Source: an uncultured Actinomycetes bacterium (GTDB lineage Bacteria > Actinomycetota > Thermoleophilia > UBA2241). From it: DNA of 64,000 nt. Under the pieces are notes generated by a model. It was not told where the DNA came from and ran no database searches. It worked only from the letters and a program-made list of their open reading frames with translations. Both the position numbers and the translations under genes were made by a program. Location: the NCBI GenBank assembly GCA_963767005.1, contig CAVYCN010000008.1:1-64000 (forward strand). Reading direction: 5' to 3'. Below, in pieces: positions 41,280-62,145 of the stretch; the stretch's first letter is position 1; each line of letters starts with the position of its first letter.

Positions 41280-41353
41280 GGCGTCACCTCGCGGCCGGCC
41301 GCACCGCGGGCGCCGGTGGCGATGTCGTCGAGGCGCTGACTCGCCCTGCTCAT
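41276..41353 (-). CDS. 25-aa mini-ORF bridging nuoL stop and nuoM start
   Basis: ATGA overlap at both ends; MSRASQRLDDIATGARGAAGREVTP. Confidence 0.35.
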   Translation of the reverse strand: MSRASQRLDDIATGARGAAGREVTP

Positions 41354-43236
41354 CGCAGCACCACGAACAGGACGCCTACGGCGACGCCCAGGCCGACGAC
41401 GAACACGTAGGAGCGCACGAGACCGTTCTGCGTGGCCGACAGGCCGCGCCAGCCGGCCCGGGTGAGGCGCGCGAGGGCGGCCACGGGCGGGTCGAAGAGG
41501 TCGCCCCTGCTCACGCGCGCGAACCACAGGAAGGGCACCTCGAACGCGTAACGGTAGAGGGTGTCGAAGCCCCAGCCGGCCAGGAAGAAGCGCGCGGCAA
41601 ACGACGTCTCGGCCTCGGCGCGCTCCTGGCGGCGGCGCTCGTAGAGCAGCCAGCCGAGGCCGATGCCGGCGACGGCGATCACACCGGGCAGGTACACCGT
41701 CCAGGCGTCGGCGGCCAGGCCGGCGTGGCGCAGCGCCGCCTCGGGCAGCACCGGCGCGAGGAACTTGTCGAGCGCCTGGATGTGCGCCCAACCGCGCGGG
41801 ACGTCGATCAGGCCGGCGACCACGGAACCCACGGCGAGCACATACAGCGGCAGCCTGATCGCGAGGCCGGTGCGAAAGCCGGGCCGCGGCTCGGTGCGCA
41901 CGGGGCCGAAGAACACCGTAAAGACGGCGCGGAACGAGTAGAGGCCGGTGAGCAGGGAGCCGACCAGGCCGCCTGCCCACAGCCAGGCGCTGCCCTGCGT
42001 GGACTGCAGGGCGCGGTCGATGATGAGGTCCTTGCTGTAGAAGCCGGCGGTCACGATCGGCAGGGCCGACAGGGCGGCGGCGCCGATCAGGAAGGTCCAG
42101 AAGGCCAGGGGCAGCCGCGTGCGCAGGCCGCCCATCCTGAAGATCTCGTGCTCGTCGTCCATGGCGTCGATCACGACGCCGGCCGACAGGAACAGCAGCG
42201 CCTTGAAGAAGGCGTGGGTGATGAACATGAACACGCCGGCCGACCAGGCGCCGACACCCAGGGCGAGGAACATGTAGCCCACCTGGCTGACCGTCGAGTA
42301 GGCAAGGATGCGCTTGAGGTCGACCTGGAACAGGGCGCTCACACCCGCGTAGAGCAGGGTCGCCGCGCCGATCACGGCGACCGTGGTGCGGGCCGCCGGC
42401 GCGAGGTCGAAGAGCAGGTTGGTACGAGCCACGAGGTAGACGCCCGCGGTGACCATGGTCGCGGCGTGGATGAGGGCGCTGACGGGCGACGGGCCGGCCA
42501 TGGCGTCGGGCAGCCAGGTCTGCAGAGGAAGCTGCGCCGACTTGCCGACCGCGCCGCCCAGCAGCAGCAGGGCGGCGGCGACCGGCAGGGCGGAACCGTG
42601 CGCCCAGGTGGCCGCCGCGCGATGCATGAGCGGCTGGATCTGCAGCGTGCCGAGCTGCGTGTACAGCAGGAACAGCCCGACGATCAGCGCGGTATCGCCG
42701 ACACGGGTGACGACGAACGCCTTGCGGGCCGCGTAGCCGTTGTACCAGTGCTTGTACCAGAAGCCGATCAGCAGGTAGCTGCACAGGCCGACGCCCTCCC
42801 AGCCCAGGTAGAGCAGCAGCAGGTTGTCGGCCAGCACGAGCACGAGCATGAAGCCCACGAAGAGGTTCATGTAGGTAAAGAAGCGGGCGTAGCCGTCGTC
42901 CGCGGCCATGTGCTCCACCGAGTAGAGGTGGATGAGGAAGCCCACGCAGGTGACGATCAGGATGAAGCAGATCGCGAGCGGATCGAGGTAGAGGGCGACC
43001 TGCACCTTGAGGCCGGCCACGCTGAACCAGGTCCACAGGGCCTGGTCGAAGGCGTGGCCGGCCGGCGGCGCGGCGATGAAGTCGAGCGAGACGGCGAGCG
43101 CGACGAGCGCCGCGAGGCCGACCGAGCCGGCGCCCACCAGGGCCACGCCGCGCTGCGGCAGGCGGCGCCCGCCGAGGGCCAGCACGGCGAAGCCGGCGAA
43201 GGGCAGCAGAGGCACGAGGAAGAGGGCGTGCAGCAT
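41350..43236 (-). CDS. nuoL: NADH-quinone oxidoreductase subunit L
   Basis: GWEGVGLCSYLLIGFW, GKSAQLPL.TWLPDAMAGP.PVSALIHAATMV, THAFFKALLFL. Confidence 0.97.
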   Translation of the reverse strand: MLHALFLVPLLPFAGFAVLALGGRRLPQRGVALVGAGSVGLAALVALAVSLDFIAAPPAGHAFDQALWTWFSVAGLKVQVALYLDPLAICFILIVTCVGFLIHLYSVEHMAADDGYARFFTYMNLFVGFMLVLVLADNLLLLYLGWEGVGLCSYLLIGFWYKHWYNGYAARKAFVVTRVGDTALIVGLFLLYTQLGTLQIQPLMHRAAATWAHGSALPVAAALLLLGGAVGKSAQLPLQTWLPDAMAGPSPVSALIHAATMVTAGVYLVARTNLLFDLAPAARTTVAVIGAATLLYAGVSALFQVDLKRILAYSTVSQVGYMFLALGVGAWSAGVFMFITHAFFKALLFLSAGVVIDAMDDEHEIFRMGGLRTRLPLAFWTFLIGAAALSALPIVTAGFYSKDLIIDRALQSTQGSAWLWAGGLVGSLLTGLYSFRAVFTVFFGPVRTEPRPGFRTGLAIRLPLYVLAVGSVVAGLIDVPRGWAHIQALDKFLAPVLPEAALRHAGLAADAWTVYLPGVIAVAGIGLGWLLYERRRQERAEAETSFAARFFLAGWGFDTLYRYAFEVPFLWFARVSRGDLFDPPVAALARLTRAGWRGLSATQNGLVRSYVFVVGLGVAVGVLFVVLR

Positions 43237-43237
43237 G

Positions 43238-43546
43238 TCAGCCTCGCATCCTGTTCGCGGCGTCGATGTCGAGCGAGCCGAAGGCACGCCGGAACAGCAG
43301 CGCCAGCGCGAGGCCCACGGCCACCTCGGCGGCCGCCATGGCGAGGATGAAGATGAACATGACCTGGCCGTCGGGGCGGCCCCAGCGCGAGCCGGCCACG
43401 ACGAAGGCCAGGCCGGAGGCGTTCAGCATGATCTCGATCGAGGCCAGCACGAAGATCAGGTTGCGGCGCACGAGCACGCCGGTCAGGCCGACCAGGAACA
43501 GGGCGGCGGCCAGGTAGAGGCCGTACTGGAAGGGCACGTGGGCCAT
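43238..43546 (-). CDS. nuoK: NADH-quinone oxidoreductase subunit K
   Basis: [23 protein letters not shown]. Confidence 0.96.
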
Positions 43547-44169
43547 CAGGCATCCCTCCCCACGGCCTGCCGCAGCGGCTCGCCGGGCCGCGGCGGTTCG
43601 CCGGGCCGCGGCGTTTCGCCCGGCCGCGGCGGCTCGACGAACTGCGCCTCGCCGCCGCGCACCCGCTCGAGCTCCGGCTCGCGCTGGCGCTGGCCGAGGT
43701 GACGAGCGCCGATCAGGGCGGCGAGCAGCAGCGTCGAGGCCAGCTCGACGCCGATCGCATAGGGCCCGTAGAGGGCGACGCCGACCGCGCGGGGCGGCAC
43801 CGCGTGCACGCCGGTGTGGGCCGCCGGACCGGTCGAGATCGCCAGGGCGAGCTCGACGAGCAGGGCGACGGACAGCAGGCCGGGGCCGAGGAACGAGATC
43901 GGCCGCAGGCGCGCGGGCTCGTCGCCCTCGGCCTGGCGACCGACGTTCAGGAGCATCACCGTGAACAGGAAGAGCACGATGATGGCGCCGGCGTAGATGA
44001 TCACCTCGAGGGCCGCGACGAACGGCGCGCCGAGGGTGTAGAAGACGACCGCCACGGCGAGCAGCGACACGACCAGATAGAGCAGCGCGTGGATCGTGTC
44101 GCGGCGCGTCACGACGAGCAGCGTCGAGACGAGCGCGACGGCGGCGGCCAGGTAGAAGACGACGGTCAC
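43546..44169 (-). CDS. nuoJ: NADH-quinone oxidoreductase subunit J
   Basis: [42 protein letters not shown]. Confidence 0.95.
43577..43636. repeat. In-frame 18-bp tandem repeat (~3.3 copies) in the nuoJ tail
   Basis: ggYtcgccgggccgcggc-like units encoding (P/T)PRPGE x3. Confidence 0.9.
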
Positions 44170-44186
44170 GGCTCGCGCGTCCTCAC
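44166..44186 (-). CDS. 6-aa mini-ORF bridging nuoI stop and nuoJ start
   Basis: GTG AGG ACG CGC GAG CCG TGA; GTGA overlap at both ends. Confidence 0.3.
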
Positions 44187-44695
44187 GGCAGCAGCCGCTT
44201 CGGATCGTACGGCGGGGCCTCGTGCTCGGCCTCGCCGGTCGCCTTGCCGCCGATGGCGAGGCCGGCGATCCGGTAGAAGTCGTAGTCGTGGTACTTGCCG
44301 GTGCCCGCGATCAGCAGGTCTTCCTTCTCGTAGACCATGTTGGCGCGCACGTACTCGCTCATCTCGAAGTCTGGGGTGAGCTGGATGGCGTAGGTCGGGC
44401 AGGCCTCCTCGCAGTAGCCGCAGAAGATGCAGCGCGAGAAGTTGATGCGAAACCACTCGGGGTAGCGCCGGCCGTGCTCGTCCTGCGTAGCCTGCAGCGC
44501 GATGCAGTCGACGGGGCAGGCCACGGCGCACAGGTAGCAGGCCACGCAGCGCTCGCCGCCGTCGGGGTCGCGCGACAGGATGATGCGCCCCTTGAAGCGC
44601 GGCGGGTGGTAAGCCATCTCCTTGGGGTACTCGACCGTGTCGCTGCGCCGGAACAGGTGCAAAAAGACGATCCACAGGCCGCGCAGCAGGCTCAT
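44183..44695 (-). CDS. nuoI: NADH-quinone oxidoreductase subunit I
   Basis: [14 protein letters not shown] and [15 protein letters not shown] (2x[4Fe-4S]); alternative GTG start at 44704. Confidence 0.97.
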
Positions 44696-44745
44696 CGCCG
44701 CCACCTCGTCTCTGCACGGCCGGCATGATCACACGCCGCCCTCAT
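44692..44745 (-). CDS. 17-aa mini-ORF bridging nuoH stop and nuoI start
   Basis: [17 protein letters not shown]; ATGA overlap at both ends. Confidence 0.3.
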
Positions 44746-45761
44746 CTCTGCACCGCCAGCACGATCGCGCCGGTGACGGCGAGGTTGGCGAGCGAGATCG
44801 GCAGAAGGATCTTCCAGCCGAGCTCCATGAGCTGGTCGTAGCGCGGCCGCGGATAGGTGGCGCGCACGAGGATGAAGAAGGCGATGAAGGCGAACGTCTT
44901 GATCAGGAACCAGACGAAACCGGGCAGCACAGGCCCGAGCCAGCCGCCGAAGTAGAACGTCGCGATGAGCGCCGAGATGAGCGTGATCCCCATGTACTCG
45001 CCGACGAAGAACATGCCGAACTTCATGCCGGAGTACTCGGTGTGATAGCCGGCGACGAGCTCGCTCTCAGCCTCGACCAGGTCGAACGGGATGCGGCGCG
45101 TCTCGGCGAAGCCGGCCAGCAGGAACACGACGAAGCCGGGGAACTGGGGCACGATGTACCACAGGCCGCGCTGGCCCGCGACGATGTCGTTCAGGCTGAA
45201 CGAGCCGGCGAGCAGCACCACGCCGGTGAGCGCGAGACCCATGAAGACCTCGTAGCTGATCATCTGGGCGGCCGCTCGCAGGCCGCCGATCACCGAGTAC
45301 TTGCTGTGCGAGGCCCAGCCGGCCAGGGCCACCGAGTAGACGCCGAACGACGACATCGCCAGGAAGTAGAGCAGGCCGACGTTCATGTTCGCGACCACGA
45401 CGGTGTGGTTGACCGGCACGACGGCGAAGCCGAGCAGCACCGAGAGCACGATGATGGCCGGCGCGGCCACGAAGAGCGCGCGGTCGGCAAAGGGCGGGAC
45501 CCAGTCCTCCTTCGTGAAGATCTTGATCATGTCGGCGACCGGCTGCAGGAGCCCGGCCGGTCCTACCCGGTTGGGGCCCAGGCGGTCCTGGAACAGGCCC
45601 AGGAGGCGGCGCTCCATCCAGATGAGGAAGGCCGCGACGTTGAGCGCGCCGAGCAGCACGATGAGCACCACCACGACCTTCCAGAGGTCCTCGGCCCAGG
45701 CCGCGACGCCGAGCGGCGCGGCAGCGAGGACACGGGCGAGCGGCAAGGCGAGGTCAGGCAT
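44742..45761 (-). CDS. nuoH: NADH-quinone oxidoreductase subunit H
   Basis: ERRLLGLFQDR.GPNRVG, KEDW.P, AQ.ISYE, PFDL.EAE.EL..GYH.EYSGMKF, PRPRYDQ. Confidence 0.97.
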   Translation of the reverse strand: MPDLALPLARVLAAAPLGVAAWAEDLWKVVVVLIVLLGALNVAAFLIWMERRLLGLFQDRLGPNRVGPAGLLQPVADMIKIFTKEDWVPPFADRALFVAAPAIIVLSVLLGFAVVPVNHTVVVANMNVGLLYFLAMSSFGVYSVALAGWASHSKYSVIGGLRAAAQMISYEVFMGLALTGVVLLAGSFSLNDIVAGQRGLWYIVPQFPGFVVFLLAGFAETRRIPFDLVEAESELVAGYHTEYSGMKFGMFFVGEYMGITLISALIATFYFGGWLGPVLPGFVWFLIKTFAFIAFFILVRATYPRPRYDQLMELGWKILLPISLANLAVTGAIVLAVQR

Positions 45762-48573
45762 CGGCCGGCCCCCCGGGCTCGATGGCGACCTCGCCGGGCA
45801 GGTCGACGAAGGGCAGCCCCGGCAGGCCGACCGGCAGGCCGCACACGCCGGCCGGCAGCGACGGTACGACCCGCATCGGCAGGTGGAGGAGCCCACCAGC
45901 CGCGCCGTCGGGCGCCGGCTTCACCCGCACGCCGTCGCCGCGGCGCAGGCCGAGGCGCTCGGCGTCGAGCGCGCCGAGCGCCAGGTAGGGCGCCGGGGCC
46001 CGTCCCGCGATCGGCGGCGAGAGCACGCTGAGCTCCTCGCTGCCGTAGATCTCGTGCAACGGCACGGCGAGGAAGCGGTCGGCGGCCGCTGCGAAGCGCG
46101 CCGGGAGGGCGGGCGTCGGCGCCGCCTGCGGCGTCGCCGGCGGCTCGACCAGGCGCGCGCCGGGGTCGCCGCCGCGCAGCGGCCCGGCGACCTCTTCCTG
46201 GAACTTGTTGAGCGCCTGCACAGAGTTCCAGCGCGGTACCCGGTAGCGGGCAAGGAGCGCTCCCGGCGCCTCGCCGCCGTAGCCCTCCATGCTGAAGGCA
46301 AGGGGCGCGTCGCGGTCGTCGGGCGGCGGCGGCTCGTGCACGGTCCGGTCGGCGACGATCGCCGTACGGCCGCTGAACCGCGACGCCGCGCGCGGCACCT
46401 TCATGCCGGCGAAGCGCGCGCCGGCGGGCGGCGCCGCGAGCGCGGCCGGCGCGAGGTCGGGACGCTCGCGGGCGAGCTCGTCGAGCACGTCGTCGACCGC
46501 GTACCAGCGCTGGCCCACCGGCAGGCGGGCGGCGGCGGCGAGGCTCGACAGCCAGCGCCAGGTGGGCTGCACGGCACGCTCCGACTCCATCACCTGGAAC
46601 GAGCGCTGGGCGCGGCCCTCGAAGCCGACCCACGTCCCGGTCGACTCGGCCCACGACGCCGCCGGCATGACGGCCGTCGCGCGCGCTGTGGTCGGCGTCG
46701 TCACGTGGTCGAAGACGAGCACGGTGGGGCAGTGCTCGAAGAAGGCGTCGACCCGGGCCGCGGGCGCGCGCCGGTAGAGGTCGTTCTCGACGACCAGGGC
46801 GACCTCGACGTCGTCGGCGGCGGCCAGGTCGAACGCCTCGCTCAGGCGGCGGCCGCCGAGCAGGGCGAGGCCGAGGGTGTTGGCCTCGGGCAGCACCAGG
46901 GCGAGCGGGCAGCCGGCGCCGCGCGGCACGGCGCCCGCGACGTCGTCGCCGGCGCGCCAGGCGGGCAGCACGTGGGCCAGCCGGGCGGCGGCCTCGAGCA
47001 ACTCGAGGCTGCCGGCGCTCACGCCCGACACCACGAGCGGCCGGCCGGCACCGCGCAGCGCCGCGGCGAACCGCTCGACGGCGGCGCGCTCGGCGTCGTC
47101 GGCGGGCTTCACGGCCGGCGCGGCGCTCCGGCCGCCGACGGCCCGGGCGAGGGCCAGGGCGAAGCGGGCGAGGTCGGCCGGCGCCGCGTGCCAGGTCGCC
47201 TCGGCTACCTCGTCGAGCTTGCCGGCGTGCGTGTCGGCGATCCAGAGGGCGCTCGGCTCCTCCTTCTTGACCATGCCGAGACCGGCGTCGTTCCAGCGGG
47301 CGATGCCGAGGCGTTCCTCGGCCTGCGTCGGCCGCAGGCGGTTCCAGCGCCGCAGCGAGAGGGCGAGCAGCGGGCCGGTGTTGGTGAGGTCCTCGCCGAG
47401 CACGAGCACGAGGTCGGCCGCGTCGAGGTCGCGCAGGGTCGGCGTCGGCGAGGGACCCGTGGTCAGGATCTCGAGGGCGCGCTCGACCAAGGTGTGCTCG
47501 CGATCGGCGAGACCCAGGAAGAAGCGCTCGTCGCCGACCAGGCGCTTGAGGGCGAAGTTGGCCTCGAGCGACGCGCGCGGCGAGCCGATGCCGACCGGGC
47601 GCGGCCGCGCGAGGCGCGGCCGCGCCCCCACCGCCGCGCGCCGGTCGCGCGTGGCCGACTCGAGGCGCGCGCCCATGCCGCGCACAAGCTCACCGGCCGA
47701 CAGACCGCCGATGCCGACGATCGCCTGGCGCACGCGCCGCTCGCCGTTCACCGACTGATACGCGTAGCGACCGCGGTCGCACAGGAAGTAGCCGTTGACG
47801 TCGCCGTTGTACCGGTTGAGCACGCGGCGCAGCTCGCCGTAGCGCTGGCCCGGGATGGTGTTGCAGCCGCGTCCGCAGAAGACGCACACGGCGGGTGCGG
47901 TCTCCAGGTCCCATTTGCGCGTGTAGTGCGCCGCCAGGGTCTTGTCGTCGAAGACGCCGACGGGGCAGACCTCGACGAGGTTGCCGCTGAACTCGCTGTC
48001 GAGTGCCCCGTCGGTGAGGCGTCCGAAGTAGACGTCGTTGCGCAGCCCGAAGACGCCGAAGTCGCGGCCGCCGGCGTAGTCGTTGTAGAACCGCGTGCAG
48101 CGGTAGCACTGGATGCAGCGGTTCATCTCGTGGGTCACGAAGGGCCCCAGGTCGTGGTTCTCCCAGGTGCGCTTGCGGTAGGGGTAGCGGCGGTAGACGT
48201 GGCCGGTCATCACCGTCATGTCCTGCAGGTGGCACTCGCCGCCCTCGTCGCAGACCGGGCAGTCGTGAGGGTGGCTCGTCATGAGCAGCTCGATGACGCG
48301 GGCGCGGAAGCGCACGGCCTCGTCGTCGGTGATCGCCACGCGGTTGCCGGCGCGGGGCCGCGTCAGGCAGGCCATGACGATCTCGCCGTCGTGGTCGTCG
48401 TCGTCCCAGTACAGCTTGACGGCGCACTGGCGGCAGGCGCCGATCGAGCCCATCGCCGGATGCCAGCAGAAGTAGGGCAGGTCGTAGCCGAGCGACAGGC
48501 AGATGTCGAGCAGGTTGCGGCCGTCGTCGACCTCGTAGGACGTGCCCTCGATCGTGATCGCCACGCGCGCCAC
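45754..48573 (-). CDS. nuoG: NADH-quinone oxidoreductase subunit G (long E. coli type with N7 cluster motif)
   Basis: YFCWHP...GACRQC, HPHDCPVCDEGG.C, RCIQCYRC, CVFCGRGCN...FLCDRGR. Confidence 0.96.
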   Translation of the reverse strand: MARVAITIEGTSYEVDDGRNLLDICLSLGYDLPYFCWHPAMGSIGACRQCAVKLYWDDDDHDGEIVMACLTRPRAGNRVAITDDEAVRFRARVIELLMTSHPHDCPVCDEGGECHLQDMTVMTGHVYRRYPYRKRTWENHDLGPFVTHEMNRCIQCYRCTRFYNDYAGGRDFGVFGLRNDVYFGRLTDGALDSEFSGNLVEVCPVGVFDDKTLAAHYTRKWDLETAPAVCVFCGRGCNTIPGQRYGELRRVLNRYNGDVNGYFLCDRGRYAYQSVNGERRVRQAIVGIGGLSAGELVRGMGARLESATRDRRAAVGARPRLARPRPVGIGSPRASLEANFALKRLVGDERFFLGLADREHTLVERALEILTTGPSPTPTLRDLDAADLVLVLGEDLTNTGPLLALSLRRWNRLRPTQAEERLGIARWNDAGLGMVKKEEPSALWIADTHAGKLDEVAEATWHAAPADLARFALALARAVGGRSAAPAVKPADDAERAAVERFAAALRGAGRPLVVSGVSAGSLELLEAAARLAHVLPAWRAGDDVAGAVPRGAGCPLALVLPEANTLGLALLGGRRLSEAFDLAAADDVEVALVVENDLYRRAPAARVDAFFEHCPTVLVFDHVTTPTTARATAVMPAASWAESTGTWVGFEGRAQRSFQVMESERAVQPTWRWLSSLAAAARLPVGQRWYAVDDVLDELARERPDLAPAALAAPPAGARFAGMKVPRAASRFSGRTAIVADRTVHEPPPPDDRDAPLAFSMEGYGGEAPGALLARYRVPRWNSVQALNKFQEEVAGPLRGGDPGARLVEPPATPQAAPTPALPARFAAAADRFLAVPLHEIYGSEELSVLSPPIAGRAPAPYLALGALDAERLGLRRGDGVRVKPAPDGAAGGLLHLPMRVVPSLPAGVCGLPVGLPGLPFVDLPGEVAIEPGGPADA

Positions 48574-48574
48574 G

Positions 48575-49963
48575 TCAGGCCCCCCCGCCGGGAGCCGGGC
48601 CGCCGGCGCCGGGTCGTGCCGTGCCGCCGCGGGGATAGGCGCCGGTCCGGCCGCCATCGCGATAGCGGCAGCGGCCCTCCTCGATGTGCTGCGCGAAGTC
48701 GTCATGGAACAGCTTCATCGCCGTCGAGAGCGGCTTGGTGGCGCTCGGCGCGAGATCGCAGAAGCACATCTGCTCGCCCATGAACCAGCACATCTCGCGG
48801 AGCAGCTCGAGCTGCTCGGGGCGACCGCGGCCCTCCTCGATGTCGGTCAGCACGTCGACCGCCCACGGCAGCCCCGCCCAGCAGGGCGTGCACCAGCCGC
48901 ACGACTCCTGGGCGAAGAAGCGCAGCAGGTTGAGGGTGAGGCCGACCGGGCAGACCGAGTCGTCGACGAGCAGCGCGGTCGCGGTGCCGAGGCCGTAGCC
49001 GGCCTGCTTCATGTGGTCGAAGTCCATGGGCACGTCGAGGCCGTCGGCGGGGATGAAGGGCGTCGAGGCGCCGCCCGGCAGCACGGCGCGCAGGGTGTAG
49101 CCGTCGCGCATGCCGCCGGCCTGTCCCTCGATCATCTCGCGCAGGGGTGTGCCCACGGGCAGCTCCCAGGCGCCGGTGCGCCGCGCCCGGCCGGACACGC
49201 CGCAGACGCGCGTGCCGCCCTCGTCGGTCAGGCCGAGGGCGCGCCAGCGCTCGACCCCGAGGCGCAGGATGCCGGGCACGCAGCACAGCGACTCCACGTT
49301 GTTGATCACGGTCGGCCGGCTCCACAGCCCGGCGCTTGCCATGTGCGGCGGCCGCCAGCGCGGGTTGGGACGGTCGCTCTGCAGCGCGTTCAGCATGGCG
49401 GAGGCCTCGCCGCACATGTAACGCCCGATGCTCACGTGCACGTGCAGGTCGACGCTGAAGTCGGAGCCCAGGACGCGCTCGCCGAGGAAGCCGCGCTGGT
49501 GGGCCGCGGCGATCGCAGCCTCGAGCAGGGCGCGCGGCACGTCGTACTGGTCGCGCAAGAAGATGAAGCCGACCTTGGCGCCGATCGCGTAACAGGCGAG
49601 CGCCATGCCTTCGACCAGGAGGTGCGGGTCGCCCTGGATCAGGTGGCGGTCCTTGAACGAGCCGGGCTCCATCTCGTCGCCGTTGCAGACCACGTACTTG
49701 ACCGGCGGAGCGTCGGCGCCCATCGGCACGAAGCTCCATTTGCGGCCGGTGGCGTAGCCCGCGCCGCCGCGCCCGCGCAGGCCCGAGTCGCTCACCACCT
49801 GCGTGACCTCGGCCGGCGCCATGTCGCGCAGCGCGGTGCGCAGCGCCTCGTAGCCGCCGGCCGCGATGTACTCGTCGATGTCGAGCGGGCGGCCGTCGGC
49901 GCGGAAGGCGCCGGTGAGCGGACGCTCGTTCGGGTCGCCGATGCGGGCCGGGTCGTCACTCAT
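48575..49963 (-). CDS. nuoF: NAD(P)H-quinone oxidoreductase subunit F
   Basis: GRGGAG..TG.KW, CNGDEMEPG.FKDR, YMCGEASA, NNVE, ESCGWCTPC...FC. Confidence 0.96.
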   Translation of the reverse strand: MSDDPARIGDPNERPLTGAFRADGRPLDIDEYIAAGGYEALRTALRDMAPAEVTQVVSDSGLRGRGGAGYATGRKWSFVPMGADAPPVKYVVCNGDEMEPGSFKDRHLIQGDPHLLVEGMALACYAIGAKVGFIFLRDQYDVPRALLEAAIAAAHQRGFLGERVLGSDFSVDLHVHVSIGRYMCGEASAMLNALQSDRPNPRWRPPHMASAGLWSRPTVINNVESLCCVPGILRLGVERWRALGLTDEGGTRVCGVSGRARRTGAWELPVGTPLREMIEGQAGGMRDGYTLRAVLPGGASTPFIPADGLDVPMDFDHMKQAGYGLGTATALLVDDSVCPVGLTLNLLRFFAQESCGWCTPCWAGLPWAVDVLTDIEEGRGRPEQLELLREMCWFMGEQMCFCDLAPSATKPLSTAMKLFHDDFAQHIEEGRCRYRDGGRTGAYPRGGTARPGAGGPAPGGGA

Positions 49964-50420
49964 AGCGCGAGAGGATCTCATCGATGCGCTCGGGTGTGAG
50001 GTCGCCGTGGAAGTCCTCGTCGATCTGCATCGCCGGCGCGTGGTCGCACTGCGCGAGGCAGACGATCGGCAGGAAGGTGAAGCGGCCGTCGGGGGTCGTC
50101 TCGCCGAGCTCGATGCCGAGCCGTGCGCTCAGGTGCTGGCGCATGCGCTCGTAGCCCATCACGTAGCAGCAGTCGCTGTCGCAGATGAGGATGACGTGGC
50201 GCCCGACCGGCCGCCGGAACACCATGTTGGCGAAGGTCGCGGGCGAGTCGAGCTGCTCGACCGTCTCGCCGAGCAGCTCGGCGATGTCGGCGAGCGCCTC
50301 GTCGGACAGCCAGCCGCGGTGCTTCTGCACGATGCGAAAGGCGCTGGCCGCCGCCGACCGGGCGTGCGGGTAGTGCGGCAGGACGGCTTCGATCTCGGCG
50401 CGTTCTTCGTCGCTCAGCAT
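49956..50420 (-). CDS. nuoE: NADH-quinone oxidoreductase subunit E
   Basis: PVGRH.I.ICDS..C, T.DGRFT.LP..CLAQCD ([2Fe-2S]). Confidence 0.95.
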   Translation of the reverse strand: MLSDEERAEIEAVLPHYPHARSAAASAFRIVQKHRGWLSDEALADIAELLGETVEQLDSPATFANMVFRRPVGRHVILICDSDCCYVMGYERMRQHLSARLGIELGETTPDGRFTFLPIVCLAQCDHAPAMQIDEDFHGDLTPERIDEILSRYE

Positions 50421-50459: not shown

Positions 50460-52223
50460 TCACCGGTCCACGTCGGCCATCGTGAAGTCGATGCTGCCGA
50501 GGATCGTGATGAGGTCGGGGATCTCGAGGCCCTCGGTCATCAGGGGCAGGGCCTGCAGGTGCGGGAACGAGGGCGTGCGCACGCGGTTGCGGTAGGCGCT
50601 GTCGCCGCCGTCGCTGACCAGGTAGTAGGTGCTGTTGCCGCGCGGCATCTCGGTCGCGACCGCGGCCTCGCCGGGCGGCACGACCGGTCCCCAGCTCACG
50701 CCGAGGAAATGGTCGATCAGGGTCTCGATGCTGTGCATCGTGCCGGGCTGCTTGATCGGCGGCGTGGCGAGCGGCTGCCGCGACTTATGGTCGCCGGCCG
50801 GCATGTGCTCGAGGCACTGGCGCACGATGCGCAGGCTCTGCCGCATCTCCTGGCTGCGCACGACGAGGCGGTCGTAGGAGTCGCCGCCGGCCGCCGTCGG
50901 CACCTCGAAGTCGAACCAGTCGTAGCCCGAGTAGGGGCGCTTCTTGCGCAGGTCCCAGTCGCTGCCGCAGCAACGCAGGTTGGGGCCGGTGACGCCCCAC
51001 TCGACGGCCTGCTCGAGCGTCAGCGTGCCGACGCCCTTGGCGCGGGCCTTGGTCAGGCGGCTGTCGAGCACCAGGTGGTCGTACTCGTCGAGGCGCGGCG
51101 CCAGGTAGTCGAGGAACTCGCGCACGAGCTCGTCCCAGCCGCGCGGCAGGTCGTCGGCGACGCCGCCGAGGCGGAACCAGCCGGGGTGCATGCGGCCGCC
51201 GGCGACCGCCTGGACGATGTCGTGGATGCGCTCGCGGTCGCTGAACATGTAGAAGACCGGCGACAGGGCGCCGATGTCCTGGGCGAACGTGCCGTAGTAG
51301 AGCAGATGGCTGTTGATGCGGAAGAGCTCGCACATCATCACCCGGATGGCCTTCGCCCGGTCCGGCACCTCGAGGCCGGCCAGGCGCTCGGCCGAGACCA
51401 GGTAGCAGAGCTCGTTATTGCTGCCGCCGAGGTAGTCGACGCGGTCGGTGTAGGGGATGTAGGTGTGCCAGCTCTGCCGCTCGCCGATCTTCTCCTGGGC
51501 GCGGTGGTGGTAGCCGATGTCGACCACACAGGCCGCGATCTCCTCGTCGCGCAGGCCCACCACGATGTGCACGACGCCGTGCGTGCCGCCGTGCTGCGGC
51601 CCGACGTTCAGGAACATGATCTCGGGGTCGGTCGCGAGCTCCTCGAGGCCCCAGTCCTCGGGCCTGAACGCCATCATGTCTTGCCACTCCGCGGCAAGGG
51701 CCGGCGGCATGTGCAGGACGCCGATGTCGGTCGCCCGGCAGTGCTCCTCTTTGCGCAGCGGATGGCCGTCCCACCACGGCGGCGTGAGGATGCGCGGCCG
51801 CCAGGGCAGCCCCTCGACCTCGATGCCGAACATGTCCCAGACCTCGCGCTCGTACCACGCGGCCACGGGGAACCGGTCGGTCACGGTGGGGATGCTCGGG
51901 TGCTCGCCGCGCAGGGCGACCTTGAGGCGCACGTCGGCGTTGCGCTCCAGCGACAGCAGGTGGTACACGACGGTGAAGTCGCTCGCCGGCTGGCCCTCGC
52001 GGTGCACGCGCGTGCGCTCGTCGATCGCGGTCAGGTCGTAGAGCATCCGGTAGGGGCGCTCGACGCCGCTCTTCAGGTGCTCGAGCGCCGCGGCGGCGCG
52101 CTCGGCCGGCAGCCAGACGGTGGGGATGTCGTCGGCGGTCGGCTGCACGACGAGCTCGAGGTCCGGGAACCGGGCCGCGAGCTCGTCGACTACGCCGACC
52201 GGCTGTGCCTGCGCGTCGGTCAC
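50460..52223 (-). CDS. nuoC: Fused NADH-quinone oxidoreductase subunit C/D
   Basis: NuoC WYERE.WDMFG..GHPLRK continues in frame into NuoD FLNVGPQH...HG, IGYHHR, YTDRVDY, E.PRG and C-terminal DVDR. Confidence 0.96.
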   Translation of the reverse strand: MTDAQAQPVGVVDELAARFPDLELVVQPTADDIPTVWLPAERAAAALEHLKSGVERPYRMLYDLTAIDERTRVHREGQPASDFTVVYHLLSLERNADVRLKVALRGEHPSIPTVTDRFPVAAWYEREVWDMFGIEVEGLPWRPRILTPPWWDGHPLRKEEHCRATDIGVLHMPPALAAEWQDMMAFRPEDWGLEELATDPEIMFLNVGPQHGGTHGVVHIVVGLRDEEIAACVVDIGYHHRAQEKIGERQSWHTYIPYTDRVDYLGGSNNELCYLVSAERLAGLEVPDRAKAIRVMMCELFRINSHLLYYGTFAQDIGALSPVFYMFSDRERIHDIVQAVAGGRMHPGWFRLGGVADDLPRGWDELVREFLDYLAPRLDEYDHLVLDSRLTKARAKGVGTLTLEQAVEWGVTGPNLRCCGSDWDLRKKRPYSGYDWFDFEVPTAAGGDSYDRLVVRSQEMRQSLRIVRQCLEHMPAGDHKSRQPLATPPIKQPGTMHSIETLIDHFLGVSWGPVVPPGEAAVATEMPRGNSTYYLVSDGGDSAYRNRVRTPSFPHLQALPLMTEGLEIPDLITILGSIDFTMADVDR

Positions 52224-52224
52224 G

Positions 52225-52875
52225 TCAGACCTCGCTCTGCGGTCGCAGCTCGGTCTCGGCGCTGCGCTCGGGCCGCTTGAGGTCGCGCAGCGACACCGGC
52301 TCGGCGCGCGTGGCGCCTTGGGGGCCGACCACCCAGCTGAGCGGCCGCTGCTCGGTGCCGACCATGGCCTGCAGCAGGAGCAGGCCCTCCATGAAGGCGG
52401 TGGGCGACGGCGGGCAGCCCTGGACGTAGACGTCGACGGGCAGGAAGGTGTCGACGCCCTGCACCACGCTGTAGCAGTCGAACATCCCGCCGGAGTTGGC
52501 GCACGAGCCCATCGAGATGACCCAGCGAGGCTCCATCATCTGCTCGTAGAGGCGCTGTACGATCGGCGCCATCTTGAGGAACACCGTGCCGGCCACCACC
52601 ATGACGTCGGCCTCGCGAGGCGAGATGCGCAGCACCTCGGCGCCGAAGCGCGCGATGTCGTAGCGCGGCGTCACGGTGGTGGCGAGCTCGACGAAGCAGC
52701 ACGACAGGCCGAAGTTGAACGGCCACATCGAGTTCTTGCGACCCCAGGCCACGAGGTCCTGCAGGCTGCCGAAGGCGGTCGGCGGGCGCTGGCCGAACAC
52801 GCCGGGCGCAGTGGTCGCGAGGCCGCTCAGAGCGAGGGCGGTGCGGGAAGGCCCGCTGGTGCGCGGCCGCTTCAC
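52225..52875 (-). CDS. nuoB: NADH-quinone oxidoreductase subunit B
   Basis: [41 protein letters not shown]; GTG overlaps the oxidase stop. Confidence 0.97.
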
Positions 52876-55349
52876 AGCAGGTACACCACGATGAGGATGG
52901 CGATCCAGACGGCATCGACGAAGTGCCAGTAGTAGATCGCCGACTCGACCATGCCGGGGGTGCCGGTGCCGCGCGCGATCGCTGCGGCGGGACCCTCGCC
53001 GGCCGGCACGACGCGACGTGTGCGATCGCCGGCCTGCCGGAAGAGCAGGTAGACGAGCAGCAGGAGCCCCACGGTGACGTGGGCGCCGTGCAGGCCGGTC
53101 AGGGTGAAGAACGACTCACCGGTGAGGCCGCTCGAGAGGCCGAAGCCGGCGTGCGTGTACTCCCAGCCCTGGCCGCCCAGGAAGACCACGCCCAGGATCA
53201 TGGTGACGACGAGGTGGAAGCGGAACCAGCCGATGCGGTCCTTGCGGTAGCTCGTCAGGGCGTAGTGGGCGAAGATCCCGCTCGACATGAGGATGACCGT
53301 GTTGACGATGGGCAGCGTGAGCGGCAGCCGGCCCGACGTCGTGTTCAGCGTGACGAAGTTGTCGTGGATGCGCAGGTGCAGGTCGGCCGCCAGCAGCGCG
53401 CCGAACAGCACGACCTCGGAGCCGATGAAGGTGAGCGTGCCGGCGCCGAGGGCGGTGAAGCGCTGGCCGGGCACGACCGGTGGCTGGGGGACCGTCCAGC
53501 GCGCCGACACCCAGAGGGCGGCCAGGACGAGCAGCAGGGCGATGCCGATGAACGACACGACCAGGCTGGTGAGCAGGCCGACGCCCACGACGACCGCGGC
53601 GAGCGCCGTGACCAAGGGCAGCTTCGTCCAGTGGTCGGCGTGCGGCGGCGGCGCGTGGAGGGCGGCCACCTCGGCGGCTCGTCGGGCCGCCGGCGACGTG
53701 GTGTCGAGCGCCGGGGCGCCGGACTGGCGGGCGCGCTTCATGTCGAACAGCGGACGCTCGCTTGTGATCACCGGCAGCTCGTAGGTGAAGTTGTCCTCGG
53801 GGGGCGGTGAGCTCGTCGCCCACTCGAGTGTCCAGGCATCCCAGGGGTCGTCGCCGGCCGGCTCGCCGGCGACGAGGCTGCGCACGACGTTGACCATGAA
53901 GACGACCATGGCCGCGCCGATCGTGAAGGCGCCGATCGCCGAGACGAGCTCGAGCGTCGTCCAGCCGATGTTCGCGGGGTAGGTATAGATGCGCCGCGGC
54001 GCGCCCATGAGGCCGAGCGCGTACATGGGCATGAAGGTCAGCAGGAAGCCGACCAGGATCACGGCGAAGTGGATCTTGCCGAGGCGGTCCGACAGCATCC
54101 GGCCAGAGAACTTCGGGAACCAGTAGTAGAAGGCCGCAAAGCCGATGAACACGGTGCCGCCGAACAGCACGTTGTGCAGGTGGCCGACGATGAACATGCT
54201 GTCGTTGGCCTGCCAGTCGAAGGGCACCGAGGCCTGCAGCACGCCGGTGATGCCGCCGATCGTGAAGGTCGCGATCATGCCGCAGGCGAAGAGCAAGGGG
54301 GTCTTCAGGCGCAGGCTGCCGCCCCACATCGTGGCGAGCCAGTTGAAGATCTTCACGCCGGTGGGCACGGCGATGATCATGCTGGTGGCCGCCATGATGG
54401 CGTTGAAGTAGCTGGGCAGGCCGGTCGCGAACATGTGGTGGCCCCACACGAGGAAGCCGATGAAGCCGATCGCGGCGAGGCTGATGATCATCGCCGAGCG
54501 CCCGAACAGCGGCTTGCGCGAGAACACCGGCACGATCTCGCTCATCATGCCGAAGGCCGGCAGGATGAGGATGTAGACCTCGGGGTGGCCGAAGAACCAG
54601 AACAGGTGCTGCCAGATGATGGGGTCGCCGCCGCGCGCCGGATTGAACCAGCCCGTGTGGTGGTAGCGGTCGAGGTAGAGCAAGCCGGCCGCCACGGTGA
54701 GGCTGGGGAACGCGAAGAGGATGAGCAGCGAGTTGACGAACGTGGCGATGCAGAGCAGCGGCATGCGGCGGAAGCTCATGCCGGGGGCGCGCAGGCGCAG
54801 CATGGTCATGATGAAGTTCACGGCGCCGGCGATCGACGAGACGCCGAGCAGCAGCAGCGCCACGATCCACAGATCGACGCCGCGCGGCGAGAAGGCGCGC
54901 TCGGTGAGCGGCGCATAGCTGAACCAGCCGGTGTTGAGCAGATCGCCGTTGAAGACGCCCGAGTAGAACAGGATGCCGCCGAACAGGAACAGCCAGTAGC
55001 TGAGCGCGTTCAGGCGCGGGAAAGCCATGTCGCGGGCGCCGATCATGATCGGCACGAGGTAGTTGGCAAAGCCGATCAGCATGGGCATGGCAAACAGGAA
55101 GACCATGGTGGTGCCGTGCACCGAGAAGGCCTCGTTGTACTGCTCGGGGGTGAGCACCTTCAGGCCGGGCAGCATGGTCTGCGTGCGCATCGTGATGGCG
55201 ATGCACATGCCGATCAGAAAGAAGACGAGCGACGTCGTCATGTACTGCTTGCCGACGTGCTTGTGGTCGGTGCCCATGAGCCAGGCGGCCAGGCCGCGCG
55301 GCTCTTCGCCGACGAGGGCGACGTCGTGGGGCAGGGTGATGTCCGTCAT
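52872..55349 (-). CDS. ctaD: A1-type heme-copper oxidase subunit I fused to subunit III
   Basis: [38 protein letters not shown]; C-terminal [13 protein letters not shown] and YWHFVD of subunit III; a single 825-aa ORF. Confidence 0.95.
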
Positions 55350-56368
55350 CTCAGCTCATTCAGGTAGGCGACGATCTCGCTCACGATCTGCGGCGTGAGC
55401 GGCACGTCGGGCATGCGCGTGCCGGGCTTCACGCCCTGCGGGTCGGCTATCCAGCGCGTCAGGTTCGCCGGGGTGTTGGTGAGGGTGACGGCGGCGATCG
55501 TGCTGCGGCTCGCGAGGTGCGTGAGGTCGGGGCCGAACGTGCCGTGCAGGCTGGTGCCGCGGATGGTGTGGCAACTGGCGCAGGGCAGGCGCGTCATGGC
55601 CGCCTCGCCGGCGATCGCCTGCGTCCCGGTGGCCGTGACGGCAGGCTTGAGCTGGTCGTGGAACCAGGTCGAGAAGGCGGCCGGCGACTCGACGTAGACC
55701 AGGAAGTGCATGTGGGCGTGCTGGGCGCCGCAGAAATCGGCGCACACGCCCAGGTACCTGCCGGGGGTCACCGGCAGGATCGTCAGGTAGTTCACGTGGC
55801 CCGGGATGAGCTGGATCTTGCCGGCGATCTGCGGGCACCAGAAGCTGTGGATGACGTCGGCCGACAGCAGGTCGAGCCTGACCGTCTGGTCGGCCGGGAT
55901 GTGGATCTCGTTCGCGGTCGCGAAGTCGGCGCCCGCGTAGCTGACCTGCCACCACCACTGGTGACCGGTCACCGTGAGCTGCACCGGGTCGGCGGGGCCG
56001 ACGAGCCGTCCGGTGGTCTGCATGGTGAGGCTGAACAGGACGACCACGATGATCGCCGGGATCACCGTCCACACCGCCTCGATCGTCGTGTTGCCGTGCA
56101 CCTGGCTGGCCTCGCGACCGGGACGCTCGCGGAACCTGATAAGCACGAGCGCGAGCAGTGTCCAGACGGTGATCAGCACGCCGGAGAGGATGGCGAACAT
56201 GGTGATGGTCAGCACCTTGATGTCGTGGGCGCTCGCGCCGTGGGTCTGGAACACGTTCGGCGAGACCTGCGTGCAGCCGGCGAGGCCGGCCGTCAGGGCG
56301 ACGAGGACGGCCGCGCGCAGCACGACCGGGCGCAGAGCGTGGACGCGGCGTGCGGGCTCGCGCGTCAT
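55346..56368 (-). CDS. ctaC: Cytochrome c oxidase subunit II with C-terminal cytochrome c (caa3 type)
   Basis: Lipobox LAGC, E.VWT.IP, GHQWWW, DVIHSFW, CADFCGAQHAHM (CuA), CASCH...GPDLTH...KPG..MP. Confidence 0.95.
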   Translation of the reverse strand: MTREPARRVHALRPVVLRAAVLVALTAGLAGCTQVSPNVFQTHGASAHDIKVLTITMFAILSGVLITVWTLLALVLIRFRERPGREASQVHGNTTIEAVWTVIPAIIVVVLFSLTMQTTGRLVGPADPVQLTVTGHQWWWQVSYAGADFATANEIHIPADQTVRLDLLSADVIHSFWCPQIAGKIQLIPGHVNYLTILPVTPGRYLGVCADFCGAQHAHMHFLVYVESPAAFSTWFHDQLKPAVTATGTQAIAGEAAMTRLPCASCHTIRGTSLHGTFGPDLTHLASRSTIAAVTLTNTPANLTRWIADPQGVKPGTRMPDVPLTPQIVSEIVAYLNELR

Positions 56369-57288
56369 CGCGTCACCAGCCTTTCGATGATCATGGCCAG
56401 AAGGAGCACGGCGAGGTACGGTCCCGAGAGCTTGTGCAGCAGCCACGCGGTCGTCCGGCGGCGACGGCCGGCCAGGTCGCCTGCGAGGGCGAGAAAGACG
56501 AGGCCGGCCGGCGCGGCGACCAGCAGGTAGCCCGTCCCGTACATCCCTATCACCACCGGCGTCAGGCTGAGGGCTACCAGGGCGGCGGCGGCGGCGAGGA
56601 TCATGCCCGCCGCCGCGCGCTCGCCCAGGGCGACGGGCGGCGTGGGGACGCCCGAGGCCAGGTAGTCGTCCTGCAGCGCGAAGGCCAGCGCCCAGAAGTG
56701 GGGCGGCGACCAGACCGCGATCAGGGCGCAGAGGAAGACGATGTCAGTCGTCAGGCCGCCGCCGGCCGCCGTCCAGCCGATCAGGGCCGGGAACACGCCG
56801 GCGAGGCCGCCGGGCAGGGAGCTGAGCGCGGTGCGCGGCTTGATGAGCAGCGTGTAGACGACCACGTAGTAGACGACGCCGGCGGCCGCGAACAGGGCGG
56901 CGGCGGCGCCGCCGCAGCTCCACACCGCGCCGACGCCGGCGGCTATCGCGGCGAGGCCGGCGAGGAGCGCGGTCCGCGGGTCGAGCGTGCCGTCGGCCGT
57001 CGGCCGACGGCGGGTGCGCGACATGACGGCGTCGAGGTCGTGCTCGCAGGCGTTGTTGAGCAGGGCGGCGCCGCCCACGGTGAGCGCCGCCGCGGCGACG
57101 ATCGCGACCGTGCTGGCCGGCCCGCGCGGGCCGGCCAGCACGGTCGCGACGAGCACGGTGAGGGCGAAGAGCGCGACGATGCGCGGCTTGGCGGCGCGCA
57201 CGAGCGCGCCGCCAAGCCGCGCATCGCGGTGCAGGCGACCGTTGCGCAGGTCGAGGCGCGGCGCGGCGTGGTCGAGCGCCCAGCTCAA
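56365..57288 (-). CDS. ctaB: Protoheme IX farnesyltransferase (heme O synthase)
   Basis: KPRI, N...E.DLD.VM.RT..RP, YT..IK.RT, W.PPHFWAL, DDY; TTG start overlapping the qcrB stop is inferred. Confidence 0.92.
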   Translation of the reverse strand: MSWALDHAAPRLDLRNGRLHRDARLGGALVRAAKPRIVALFALTVLVATVLAGPRGPASTVAIVAAAALTVGGAALLNNACEHDLDAVMSRTRRRPTADGTLDPRTALLAGLAAIAAGVGAVWSCGGAAAALFAAAGVVYYVVVYTLLIKPRTALSSLPGGLAGVFPALIGWTAAGGGLTTDIVFLCALIAVWSPPHFWALAFALQDDYLASGVPTPPVALGERAAAGMILAAAAALVALSLTPVVIGMYGTGYLLVAAPAGLVFLALAGDLAGRRRRTTAWLLHKLSGPYLAVLLLAMIIERLVTR

Positions 57289-60342: not shown

Positions 60343-60752
60343 CACGACCCCCGGCGGCGGCGTTGCCGGCCGCTCGTGCCCCAGTCGAGGGCGCCGAGAC
60401 GCCACAGGTACACGAGGCCGGCCAGCAGCAGGACGATGAAGACGAGGGCCTCGACGTAGCCGCTCCAGCCGGCCTGCCGCAGGCCCACGGCCCAGGCGAA
60501 GATGAAGACGGCCTCAAGGTCGAAGATCACGAAGAAGACGGCGATCTCGTAGAACTCGATCGAGAAGTGGCGCGGCAGCGGACCGGCCGGCGGCAGACCC
60601 GACTCGTAGCGCTCGTCGGTGGTCAGCTCACGGTGCCGCTGGCCGAGGAGGCTGGAGACGACGACGATGCCCACGGTGATGACCGCGGCAAGCGCTGCGT
60701 ACACCAGAAAGGGCCATCCGGCTCCTGAGATGGCCACGACAGTCGACCCCAC
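60342..60752 (-). CDS. nuoA: NADH-quinone oxidoreductase subunit A
   Basis: YESG, FY..A.FFVIFDLE..F..AW, GLVYLWR.GALDW. Confidence 0.96.
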   Translation of the reverse strand: MGSTVVAISGAGWPFLVYAALAAVITVGIVVVSSLLGQRHRELTTDERYESGLPPAGPLPRHFSIEFYEIAVFFVIFDLEAVFIFAWAVGLRQAGWSGYVEALVFIVLLLAGLVYLWRLGALDWGTSGRQRRRRGS

Positions 60753-60785
60753 GCTTCGACCCCCTGCTGCCAGACACGGCCCTGG

Positions 60786-60811
60786 CTACCCTGGAAAGAG
60801 CTCGCGGAACC
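60786..60811 (-). promoter_or_regulatory. Possible SigB/SigF-type promoter for the respiratory operon
   Basis: GGTTC-N15-GGGTAG ending about 34 nt before the nuoA GTG. Confidence 0.3.
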
Positions 60812-60910
60812 GCGTTTGGCCCCAGCGATGCTGCCAGTTAGGTAGGAAACAGGCAGGAGGCCCCTCTCGTCCAGTGTTTGGCGCTCCCGAGGCCAGCGCC
60901 GCGCGCTGAT

Positions 60911-61984: not shown

Positions 61985-62003
61985 GCGGTCGCCTCCCTCG
62001 CTT

Positions 62004-62057
62004 CGGCGATCGACTGCGTCGTCGCCGCTCAGACATGCGTGACTTCGTCGCGCGCCT
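62004..62057 (+). repeat. Diverged single copy of the 58-bp repeat
   Basis: cggcgatcgactgcgtcgtcgccgctcagacatgcgtgacttcgtcgcgcgcct aligns with the unit at 63256. Confidence 0.85.
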
Positions 62058-62145
62058 GGTTCGAAGGAGCTTACCGTACGCCGCCGGGCGCCGGATGCTT
62101 GTGTTCCGCCGCGCGACGGGGAAGCGATAGCATGAGGCCGACGTG

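What the first reader, a model, noticed from the sequence alone, without database searches (positions are those of the whole stretch)
49355..49430. NuoF naturally carries the E183A-equivalent change: candidate NADPH-oxidising complex I
Seen: the motif reads GRYMCGEASAMLNAL (Ala codon 49403-49405) instead of the canonical GRYICGEETALINSL, and the downstream KPPFP becomes RPPHM. Known: the second Glu (E. coli NuoF E183) binds the adenosine ribose and discriminates against NADPH; E183A arose in laboratory-evolved E. coli and permits NADPH oxidation. Inference: this E. coli-type enzyme may be a natural proton-pumping NADPH:quinone oxidoreductase, with the added Arg/His possibly binding the 2'-phosphate. 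The ndh gene in this window could then handle NADH.
Basis: partly seen in the sequence, partly recalled or inferred. Interest (0 to 1): 0.85.

Follow-up and report, generated by a model that had tools for sequence, protein, structure and literature searches.

The report
Complex I with NADPH-type nucleotide pocket
An uncultured actinobacterium and its relatives encode an intact respiratory complex I whose fuel-binding pocket has swapped two conserved NADH-contacting residues, so this proton pump likely burns NADPH, alone or alongside NADH, which is untested at the bench.

Summary
Observation confirmed. NuoF Ala193 (49403-49405) aligns without gaps with E. coli Glu183; His213 replaces Phe203. 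It is no read error: 94 of the 119 nearest homologue clusters share Ala+His, under purifying selection. All 13 nuo genes are intact, with complex III/IV genes inserted after nuoA. Across 140 distant representatives, all 13 with Ala/Ser/Gly at 183 have Arg/His at 203, against 1 of 125 with Glu. The NADP-only T. kivui HydB has Ser/Arg there, and its Arg340 contacts the nucleotide. Three sister operons sit directly behind zwf. Against: A. mobile WorB has Ser/His and works with NAD, so the pocket does not exclude NADH; Arg210 is not diagnostic; no activity was measured; the two E. coli E183 papers could not be read. The ndh gene is a real NDH-2. Verdict: a proton-pumping complex I that likely accepts NADPH (about 70%), with strict NADPH preference open (about 35%). 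A second, independent Ala/Arg lineage occurs as an extra complex I in Proteobacteria and Gemmatimonadota. The scan noted this kind of NuoF before on other DNA (e1-6688571, e1-9701299, e1-6637886, e1-7902041). New variant of a known kind.

The parts
49403..49405 (-). NuoF Ala193 (GCC), equivalent of E. coli Glu183
49343..49345 (-). NuoF His213 (CAC), equivalent of E. coli Phe203, T. kivui HydB Arg340, A. mobile WorB His327
49352..49354 (-). NuoF Arg210, equivalent of E. coli Lys200; not diagnostic of cofactor
48575..49981 (-). nuoF (FMN/N3 subunit; real start probably 49960); 47% identical to E. coli NuoF; model pLDDT 91, TM 0.87 to E. coli NuoF
60342..60752 (-). nuoA
58672..60405 (-). cytochrome c + Rieske protein in one frame (QcrC-QcrA-like fusion), inserted after nuoA
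57285..58967 (-). cytochrome b of the bc complex (QcrB; ORF bounds, real start later)
56365..57756 (-). heme o synthase CtaB (C-terminal part of the ORF)
55346..56446 (-). cytochrome c oxidase subunit II
52872..55349 (-). cytochrome c oxidase subunit I fused to subunit III; its stop overlaps the nuoB start (GTGA)
52225..52875 (-). nuoB, N2 ligands kept
50460..52223 (-). fused nuoCD, above the cut-off of PRK11742
49956..50420 (-). nuoE, four N1a cysteines kept; Gly135>Ala
45754..48705 (-). nuoG (ORF bounds; real start near 48573), all 16 tested Fe-S ligands kept
44742..45896 (-). nuoH (ORF bounds)
44183..44704 (-). nuoI, eight cysteines kept
43546..44169 (-). nuoJ
43238..43546 (-). nuoK
41350..43287 (-). 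nuoL (His334>Met, the other nine tested residues kept)
39711..41279 (-). nuoM
38251..39714 (-). nuoN (last 487 codons of the ORF listed as 38251-41142)
33479..34891 (-). ndh, type II NADH dehydrogenase; same strand, about 3.4 kb beyond nuoN, not shown to be co-transcribed

Best explanation
This is an intact E. coli-type respiratory complex I whose flavin subunit has Ala and His in place of the Glu and Phe that hold the adenosine end of NADH, and it likely oxidises NADPH, preferentially or alongside NADH, and likely pumps protons while reducing quinone. Shown: the two substitutions, their fixation in a lineage, the intact cofactor ligands and pumping residues, and complex III/IV genes inside the operon. 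Inferred: removing the Glu makes room for, and stops repelling, the 2'-phosphate; the His stacks on the adenine and helps bind the phosphate as Arg340 is placed to do in T. kivui HydB; hydride goes to FMN, then along the usual Fe-S chain to quinone, and on to the co-encoded bc complex and heme-copper oxidase. Ndh would take NADH if the complex prefers NADPH. My split: NADPH-preferring about 0.35-0.4, dual about 0.3.
For: Role of the two sites: in C. saccharolyticus NfnB the adenine sits between Phe159 and Phe294 and its ribose bonds to Lys164 and Glu274 (PMC11829005); Glu274/Phe294 are positions 183/203 (alignment). Natural precedent: T. kivui HydABC reduces NADP+ at 20.8 U/mg and NAD+ at <0.01 (PMC8578170); its HydB has Ser320 and Arg340 at 183/203, and Arg340 is named as a nucleotide contact (PMC10021017 Fig. 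4 legend); the NAD-using A. woodii HydB keeps Glu/Phe. Covariation: of 140 usable of 150 representatives at 50% identity, 13 of 13 with Ala/Ser/Gly have Arg/His at 203, 1 of 125 with Glu, 2 of 2 with Asp; on a tree built without the motif columns the loss of Glu needs 21 changes. Selection: in eight same-genus loci residues 183-232 show dN 0.009-0.04 against dS 0.22-0.82. Context: zwf lies directly before nuoA in L028, L041 and L069, with pgl, NADP-type gnd and cydA in L041 and L069. All four tested genomes of the independent Ala/Arg lineage also hold a canonical Glu/Phe nuoF between nuoD/E and nuoG, as expected of a specialised second enzyme. Integrity. Own genome has two zwf and an NDH-2.
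Against: A. mobile WorB (9MQX_B) has Ser307/His327, the closer match to the His of the query, yet is described as reducing NAD and was solved with NADH bound; I saw no NADP test for it. So only one characterised enzyme ties the signature to NADP, and it has Arg, not His. The zwf link is 3 of 19 Ala/His loci with at least 2 kb upstream against 0 of 13 Glu loci, the three are kin, and in the window's own genome zwf lies on another contig. Ala occurs without Arg/His in L002, L068, L050, L195, L032. Covariation shows a coupled rebuild of the pocket, not which nucleotide it serves. In the own genome two HydB-like paralogues with Ser/Arg sit beside a GltD-like subunit that in Nfn-Bfu enzymes binds NADPH while the B subunit binds NAD, which is not what a simple NADP code predicts. 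The genome has PntB, so it has another outlet for NADPH. The E. coli E183 kinetics are recalled, not read.
Confidence: 0.7

Rival explanations
1. An NADH-specific complex I with a compensated pocket: Ala/His is an alternative way to hold the adenosine of NADH and brings no useful NADPH activity.
For: WorB with Ser/His uses NAD and binds NADH. This is the only conventional complex I of the genome and it is fused in one operon with complex III/IV, as expected of the main respiratory entry. Nicotinamide- and pyrophosphate-side residues are kept (D92, E93, E95, K72).
Against: T. kivui HydB with Ser/Arg is NADP-only; loss of Glu is paired with a basic residue about 20 separate times; zwf/gnd adjacency in sister operons; E183 substitutions in E. 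coli are reported to allow NADPH oxidation (title seen, secondary passage, details recalled).
Confidence: 0.2
2. The complex binds NADP but works mainly backwards, using proton motive force to reduce NADP+ from quinol for biosynthesis under low oxygen.
For: The genome carries anaerobe-type enzymes (Nfn, Bfu modules, pyruvate:ferredoxin oxidoreductase, Fhs). Complex I is reversible (established knowledge).
Against: The operon encloses a bc complex and a heme-copper oxidase; sister operons are preceded by NADPH producers and a bd oxidase; PntB and Nfn already offer routes to NADPH.
Confidence: 0.07
3. Sequencing error, decay, or a flavin site that no longer uses pyridine nucleotides.
For: The protein scores below the NCBIfam NuoF cut-offs (475 vs 559 for TIGR01959).
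Against: Two-base codon difference, three synonymous Ala codons in 51 loci, purifying selection, all FMN-loop and N3 residues kept, confident NuoF fold.
Confidence: 0.03

Closest known systems
E. coli complex I (NuoA-N, fused NuoCD) and its NuoF E183 variants (Auriol et al. 2011, PMC3029715; Morina et al. 2011, PMC3186356). Neither paper was held: I saw their titles in reference lists and one secondary sentence; that the mutation is E183A and keeps NADH activity is recalled.
   Same: Same 13 subunits in the same order, 42-67% identity, same Fe-S ligands and pumping residues, same Ala at 183.
   Different: Natural and fixed in a lineage; adds Phe203>His, Pro204>Met, Thr184>Ser, Phe67>Tyr, Gly134-Glu135>Asp-Gln; complex III/IV genes inserted between nuoA and nuoB.
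HydB of the NADP-specific bifurcating hydrogenase HydABC of Thermoanaerobacter kivui (PDB 8A6T; PMC8578170 and PMC10021017, passages read)
   Same: Small residue at 183 (Ser320), Arg at 200, basic residue at 203 (Arg340) that contacts the nucleotide.
   Different: Soluble bifurcating enzyme with extra Fe-S domains; Arg rather than His at 203; 37-39% identity to the query.
WorB of the aldehyde oxidoreductase WorABCSL of Acetomicrobium mobile (PDB 9MQX; PMC12318220, passages read, supplement unreadable)
   Same: Small residue at 183 (Ser307) and His at 203 (His327).
   Different: Reported with NAD, NADH bound in the structure; loop reads KYIH, with a Tyr the query lacks; soluble bifurcating enzyme.
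Nuo-Bfu membrane complexes (Schut et al. 2022, PMC9304861, passages read)
   Same: Complex I body with an altered input module.
   Different: There a BfuABC module replaces NuoEFG; the window's enzyme keeps ordinary NuoEFG. The second operon of this genome (G000:C8, L130) is of that other kind.

Membership tests
E. coli-type proton-pumping complex I | nuoA, B, fused CD, E-N all present and open | tested here: met
   13 genes, 42-67% identity; NuoCD and NuoG above NCBIfam cut-offs
E. coli-type proton-pumping complex I | Ligands of N1a, N3, N1b, N4, N5, N7, N6a/b, N2 | tested here: met
   All tested Cys/His kept (E. coli position list recalled, letters read from L142)
E. coli-type proton-pumping complex I | Charged residues of the membrane arm and quinone site | tested here: met
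   All tested Glu/Lys/Asp/Arg of NuoA, H, K, L, M, N kept; NuoL His334>Met is the one tested exception; some NuoCD positions were given in another numbering and are not informative
E. coli-type proton-pumping complex I | Canonical NADH pocket (Glu183, Phe203) | tested here: not met
   Ala193, His213; NuoF below both NCBIfam equivalog cut-offs
E. coli-type proton-pumping complex I | NAD(P)H:quinone activity coupled to proton translocation | not testable with these tools
   needs enzyme assay
NADP-type pocket as in T. kivui HydB | Small residue at position 183 | tested here: met
   Ala193 versus Ser320
NADP-type pocket as in T. kivui HydB | Arg at position 203 | tested here: not met
   His213; the Ala/Arg lineage of Proteobacteria and Gemmatimonadota does have Arg
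NADP-type pocket as in T. kivui HydB | GDE rather than ADE loop, proposed as an NADP hint in PMC9431212 | tested here: inconclusive
   Query has GDE, but the lineage is mixed and Glu-type paralogues and T. maritima HydB also have GDE
NADP-type pocket as in T. kivui HydB | Measured NADP(H) preference | not testable with these tools
   needs kinetics
Electron-bifurcating HydB/BfuB | Phe before xCGE, GGPSG motif, extra Fe-S domains (Losey et al. 2020, PMC7311640) | tested here: not met
   Tyr188, PGGAST, no extra domains

The most novel reading that the evidence does not exclude
NADPH-specific proton-pumping complex I exists in nature and has evolved several times: in this actinobacterial lineage it is the cell's only conventional complex I, encoded in one operon with complex III and IV as an NADPH-to-oxygen chain, with NDH-2 left for NADH; sister operons are fed by the oxidative pentose phosphate genes in front of them; and Proteobacteria and Gemmatimonadota keep an Ala/Arg copy beside their ordinary NADH enzyme. 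A two-residue code (183 small, 203 Arg/His) would then predict cofactor across the NuoF/HydB family.
Probability: 0.35. Interest if true: 0.88.

Novelty: new variant of a known kind. Interest (0 to 1): 0.7.

Why it matters
Complex I is taught as the NADH entry to respiration, with NADPH kept for biosynthesis. A natural, evolved NADPH-oxidising version would show that some bacteria conserve energy directly from pentose-phosphate NADPH without a transhydrogenase, would change metabolic models of widespread uncultured lineages, and would give engineers an optimised pocket for relieving NADPH excess while making ATP. It also makes a clean test available: two residues, a known E. coli background, and two characterised homologues that disagree (T. 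kivui HydB, NADP; A. mobile WorB, NAD). Cultured or complete-genome carriers of the Ala/Arg form exist in the hit list (for example Rubrivivax sp. A210, L015).

Tried and rejected
Reading the primary E183 papers and Berrisford and Sazanov 2009, Schut 2021: not held; the WorABCSL supplement was too large and may hold an NADP test or the pocket figure. Paper searches for a natural NADPH complex I found nothing relevant; the library lacks most subscription journals, so this is weak. Expression: no RNA holder listed. Laid contigs of X2-X4 are mostly other organisms and say nothing on habitat. Single-sequence fold failed (pLDDT 35); the alignment fold gives no ligand pose. No complex job was sent, since a ligand cannot be scored. 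Arg210 as a marker: rejected. The GDE loop as a marker: inconclusive. My first tree lost most loci, E. coli included, to a filter error and was replaced. Monomeric IDH absent, three Iso_dh-family genes present but not typed for cofactor. A class-wide count of the motif was not obtained; distribution rests. Malic enzyme before 8 of 47 Ala/Arg loci is of untested cofactor and is not counted as support.

Full report
Observation. The minus-strand ORF 48575-49981 is NuoF; its best solved relative is E. coli NuoF (E 3e-133). Aligned to MG1655 NuoF (fetched) it shows Glu183>Ala193, Thr184>Ser, Lys200>Arg210, Phe203>His213 and Pro204>Met, while Asp92, Glu93, Glu95, Lys72, Tyr178, Glu182, Asn217, Asn218 and the four N3 cysteines are kept. 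The Ala codon is GCC at 49403-49405. Numbering runs from the ORF's first ATG; the real start is probably Met8.

It is not an error or decay. Of the 121 rows aligned (the query twice and the 119 best other clusters of 7,997 hits) 96 have Ala, all with His at 203, and 25 have Glu, one with His. In 51 Ala-type loci (one Ala/Phe locus, L195, left out) the Ala codon is GCC 29, GCG 20 and GCT 2 times, and in the eight same-genus loci the pocket segment has dN 0.009-0.04 against dS 0.22-0.82. Nine of 11 same-genus genomes hold an orthologue at 74-87% (one in two pieces); it was not found in G002 (61% complete) or G006 (92%). G039, of the same class but another family, has the same operon type with Glu and Tyr. 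Named loci with the nearest motif are labelled Thermoleophilia or Actinomycetes. A model from an 89-row alignment has pLDDT 91 and superposes on E. coli NuoF (TM 0.87, rmsd 1.3-1.7).

The operon. nuoA, B, fused CD and E-N are all present at 42-67% identity to E. coli, with all tested Fe-S ligands and all tested charged pumping residues kept; NuoL His334>Met and NuoE Gly135>Ala are the deviations. Between nuoA and nuoB lie a cytochrome c-Rieske fusion, cytochrome b, heme o synthase and oxidase subunits II and I/III; the last overlaps the nuoB start. G011 has the same order; such genes flank 15 of 28 Ala/His loci and 0 of 23 Glu loci, mostly upstream of nuoA. No Glu-type NuoF lies in a nuo operon in this genome: the four paralogues are HydB-like, two Glu/Phe and two Ser/Arg, one of the latter inside a second complex-I-like operon. 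The window's ndh is a true NDH-2; the genome also has PntB and two zwf on contig C2.

What the two positions do. In C. saccharolyticus NfnB the adenine is sandwiched by Phe159 and Phe294 and the adenine ribose bonds to Lys164 and Glu274 (PMC11829005, passage read); by the alignment these are positions 183 and 203. T. kivui HydABC reduces NADP+ (20.8 U/mg) and not NAD+ (<0.01) (PMC8578170, abstract and passages); its HydB has Ser320 and Arg340 at these positions, and Arg340 is named as a nucleotide contact (PMC10021017, Fig. 4 legend). A. woodii HydB, which uses NAD, S. ovata StnB, A. mobile HydB, both NfnB and T. maritima HydB keep Glu with Phe or Tyr. That E. coli E183A gains NADPH oxidation I could not read at source; I saw the two titles and one citing sentence, the rest is recalled.

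The counterexample. PDB 9MQX_B, A. mobile WorB, has Ser307 and His327. Its paper describes NAD as the acceptor and resolves NADH in the pocket (PMC12318220, passages). I saw no NADP test; the supplement and the earlier biochemical paper were not readable. A small residue with His therefore does not shut out NADH, and the query has His, not Arg.

Covariation and recurrence. Among 150 representatives at 50% identity, 140 were usable and 10 were dropped for gaps or partial cover. With Glu (125): 119 aromatic, 1 His, 5 other at 203; with Asp 2 of 2 basic; with Ala/Ser/Gly 13 of 13 Arg/His, three of them from the query's own lineage. On a 287-tip FastTree without columns 186-222 (34 partial rows dropped, 50 rows of the query's lineage thinned), position 183 needs 21 changes and position 203 needs 20; deep support is weak, the set is enriched for Ala by design, and one gap row and two Asp rows count among the changes. 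Of the 80 with flanks, 65 lie among nuo genes, 14 do not (one is a chance match) and one is unclear. They fall into separate groups: the query's Ala/His lineage, a tight Ala/Arg lineage (44 tips, about 36% identical to the query) in Betaproteobacteria, Thioalkalivibrio and Gemmatimonadota, and single cases in Armatimonadetes (Ala/Tyr), Francisellaceae (Ala/Trp) and L052 (Ala/Arg). Four of four Ala/Arg genomes tested also hold a canonical nuoF among nuo genes; of four Ala/His genomes one does (L168); in the genomes of L050 and L052 the Ala form is the only match.

Neighbourhood. zwf lies directly before nuoA in L028, L041 and L069, with pgl, NADP-type gnd and cydA in the last two: 3 of 19 Ala/His loci with at least 2 kb upstream, against 0 of 13 Glu loci and 0 of 43 Ala/Arg loci. 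The three are kin and the count is small, so it is suggestive only.

Mechanism and odds. Most likely NADPH binds where NADH does, its 2'-phosphate taking the space of the lost Glu and its adenine resting on His213; electrons pass FMN, the Fe-S chain and quinone to the co-encoded bc complex and oxidase, with proton pumping by an unchanged membrane arm. The substitutions, the conservation and the gene context are shown; binding, turnover and direction are inferred. NADPH accepted at a useful rate: 0.7 (preferred about 0.35-0.4, dual about 0.3); NADH-only 0.2; mainly reverse 0.07; artefact 0.03.

Novelty. Eight searches of the held library aimed at this question found no natural NADPH-oxidising complex I; most subscription journals are missing from it. 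It is a complex I by every structural test except the canonical pocket, hence a new variant of a known kind. The scan has flagged similar NuoF proteins in other genomes; those notes are unchecked and are not counted as support. Interest 0.7.

Noticed in passing
window 52872-60405: A whole bc-complex and heme-copper oxidase cluster (cytochrome c-Rieske fusion, cytochrome b, CtaB, CoxII, CoxI-III fusion) is inserted between nuoA and nuoB, giving one complex I+III+IV operon; same order in G011, L183, L189; upstream of nuoA, often inverted, in more distant relatives.
   Followed up: partly
G000:C8 about 114300-128000 (L130): Second complex-I-like operon: nuoA, B, C, D, H, a NuoI-like/NuoE fusion, a HydB-like flavoprotein with Ser/Arg pocket, a GltD/NfnA-like subunit with a C-terminal ferredoxin domain, then nuoJ-N; resembles Nuo-Bfu with an Nfn-type A subunit.
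   Followed up: partly
G000:C16 about 54300-62600 (L131): HydC/HydB (Ser/Arg pocket) between pyruvate:ferredoxin oxidoreductase genes, with a GltD-like subunit fused to a TPP-binding domain; Por-Bfu-like.
   Followed up: no
L003, L015, L042, L048, L004 and about 40 more: Independent Ala/Arg NuoF lineage forming a second nuo operon in Betaproteobacteria, Thioalkalivibrio and Gemmatimonadota; malic enzyme and PFOR-family genes precede it in 8 of 47 loci; a closer match to T. kivui HydB than the query is.
   Followed up: partly
L069:13985-20063, L041, L028: cydAB-gnd-pgl-zwf directly in front of nuoA on the same strand: a possible glucose-6-phosphate to oxygen module.
   Followed up: partly
window 49742-49744 (NuoF Arg80): Most of the Ala/His lineage has Arg just before the conserved Lys of the glycine-rich loop, where Glu-type neighbours vary, and many have Thr for the aromatic residue at query position 84; a possible third pocket change.
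   Followed up: no
L049, L057, L023: Gammaproteobacterial loci with two NuoF-like flavoprotein motifs within 20 kb, one Ala/Arg and one Glu/Tyr, outside nuo operons.
   Followed up: no
window 22876-27345: 1489-aa CoA-substrate enzyme activase (two BadF/BadG ATPase domains plus DUF2229), an anaerobe-type gene near an aerobic respiratory operon.
   Followed up: no
window 11510-13336: DUF6421 protein of unknown function, 608 aa.
   Followed up: no
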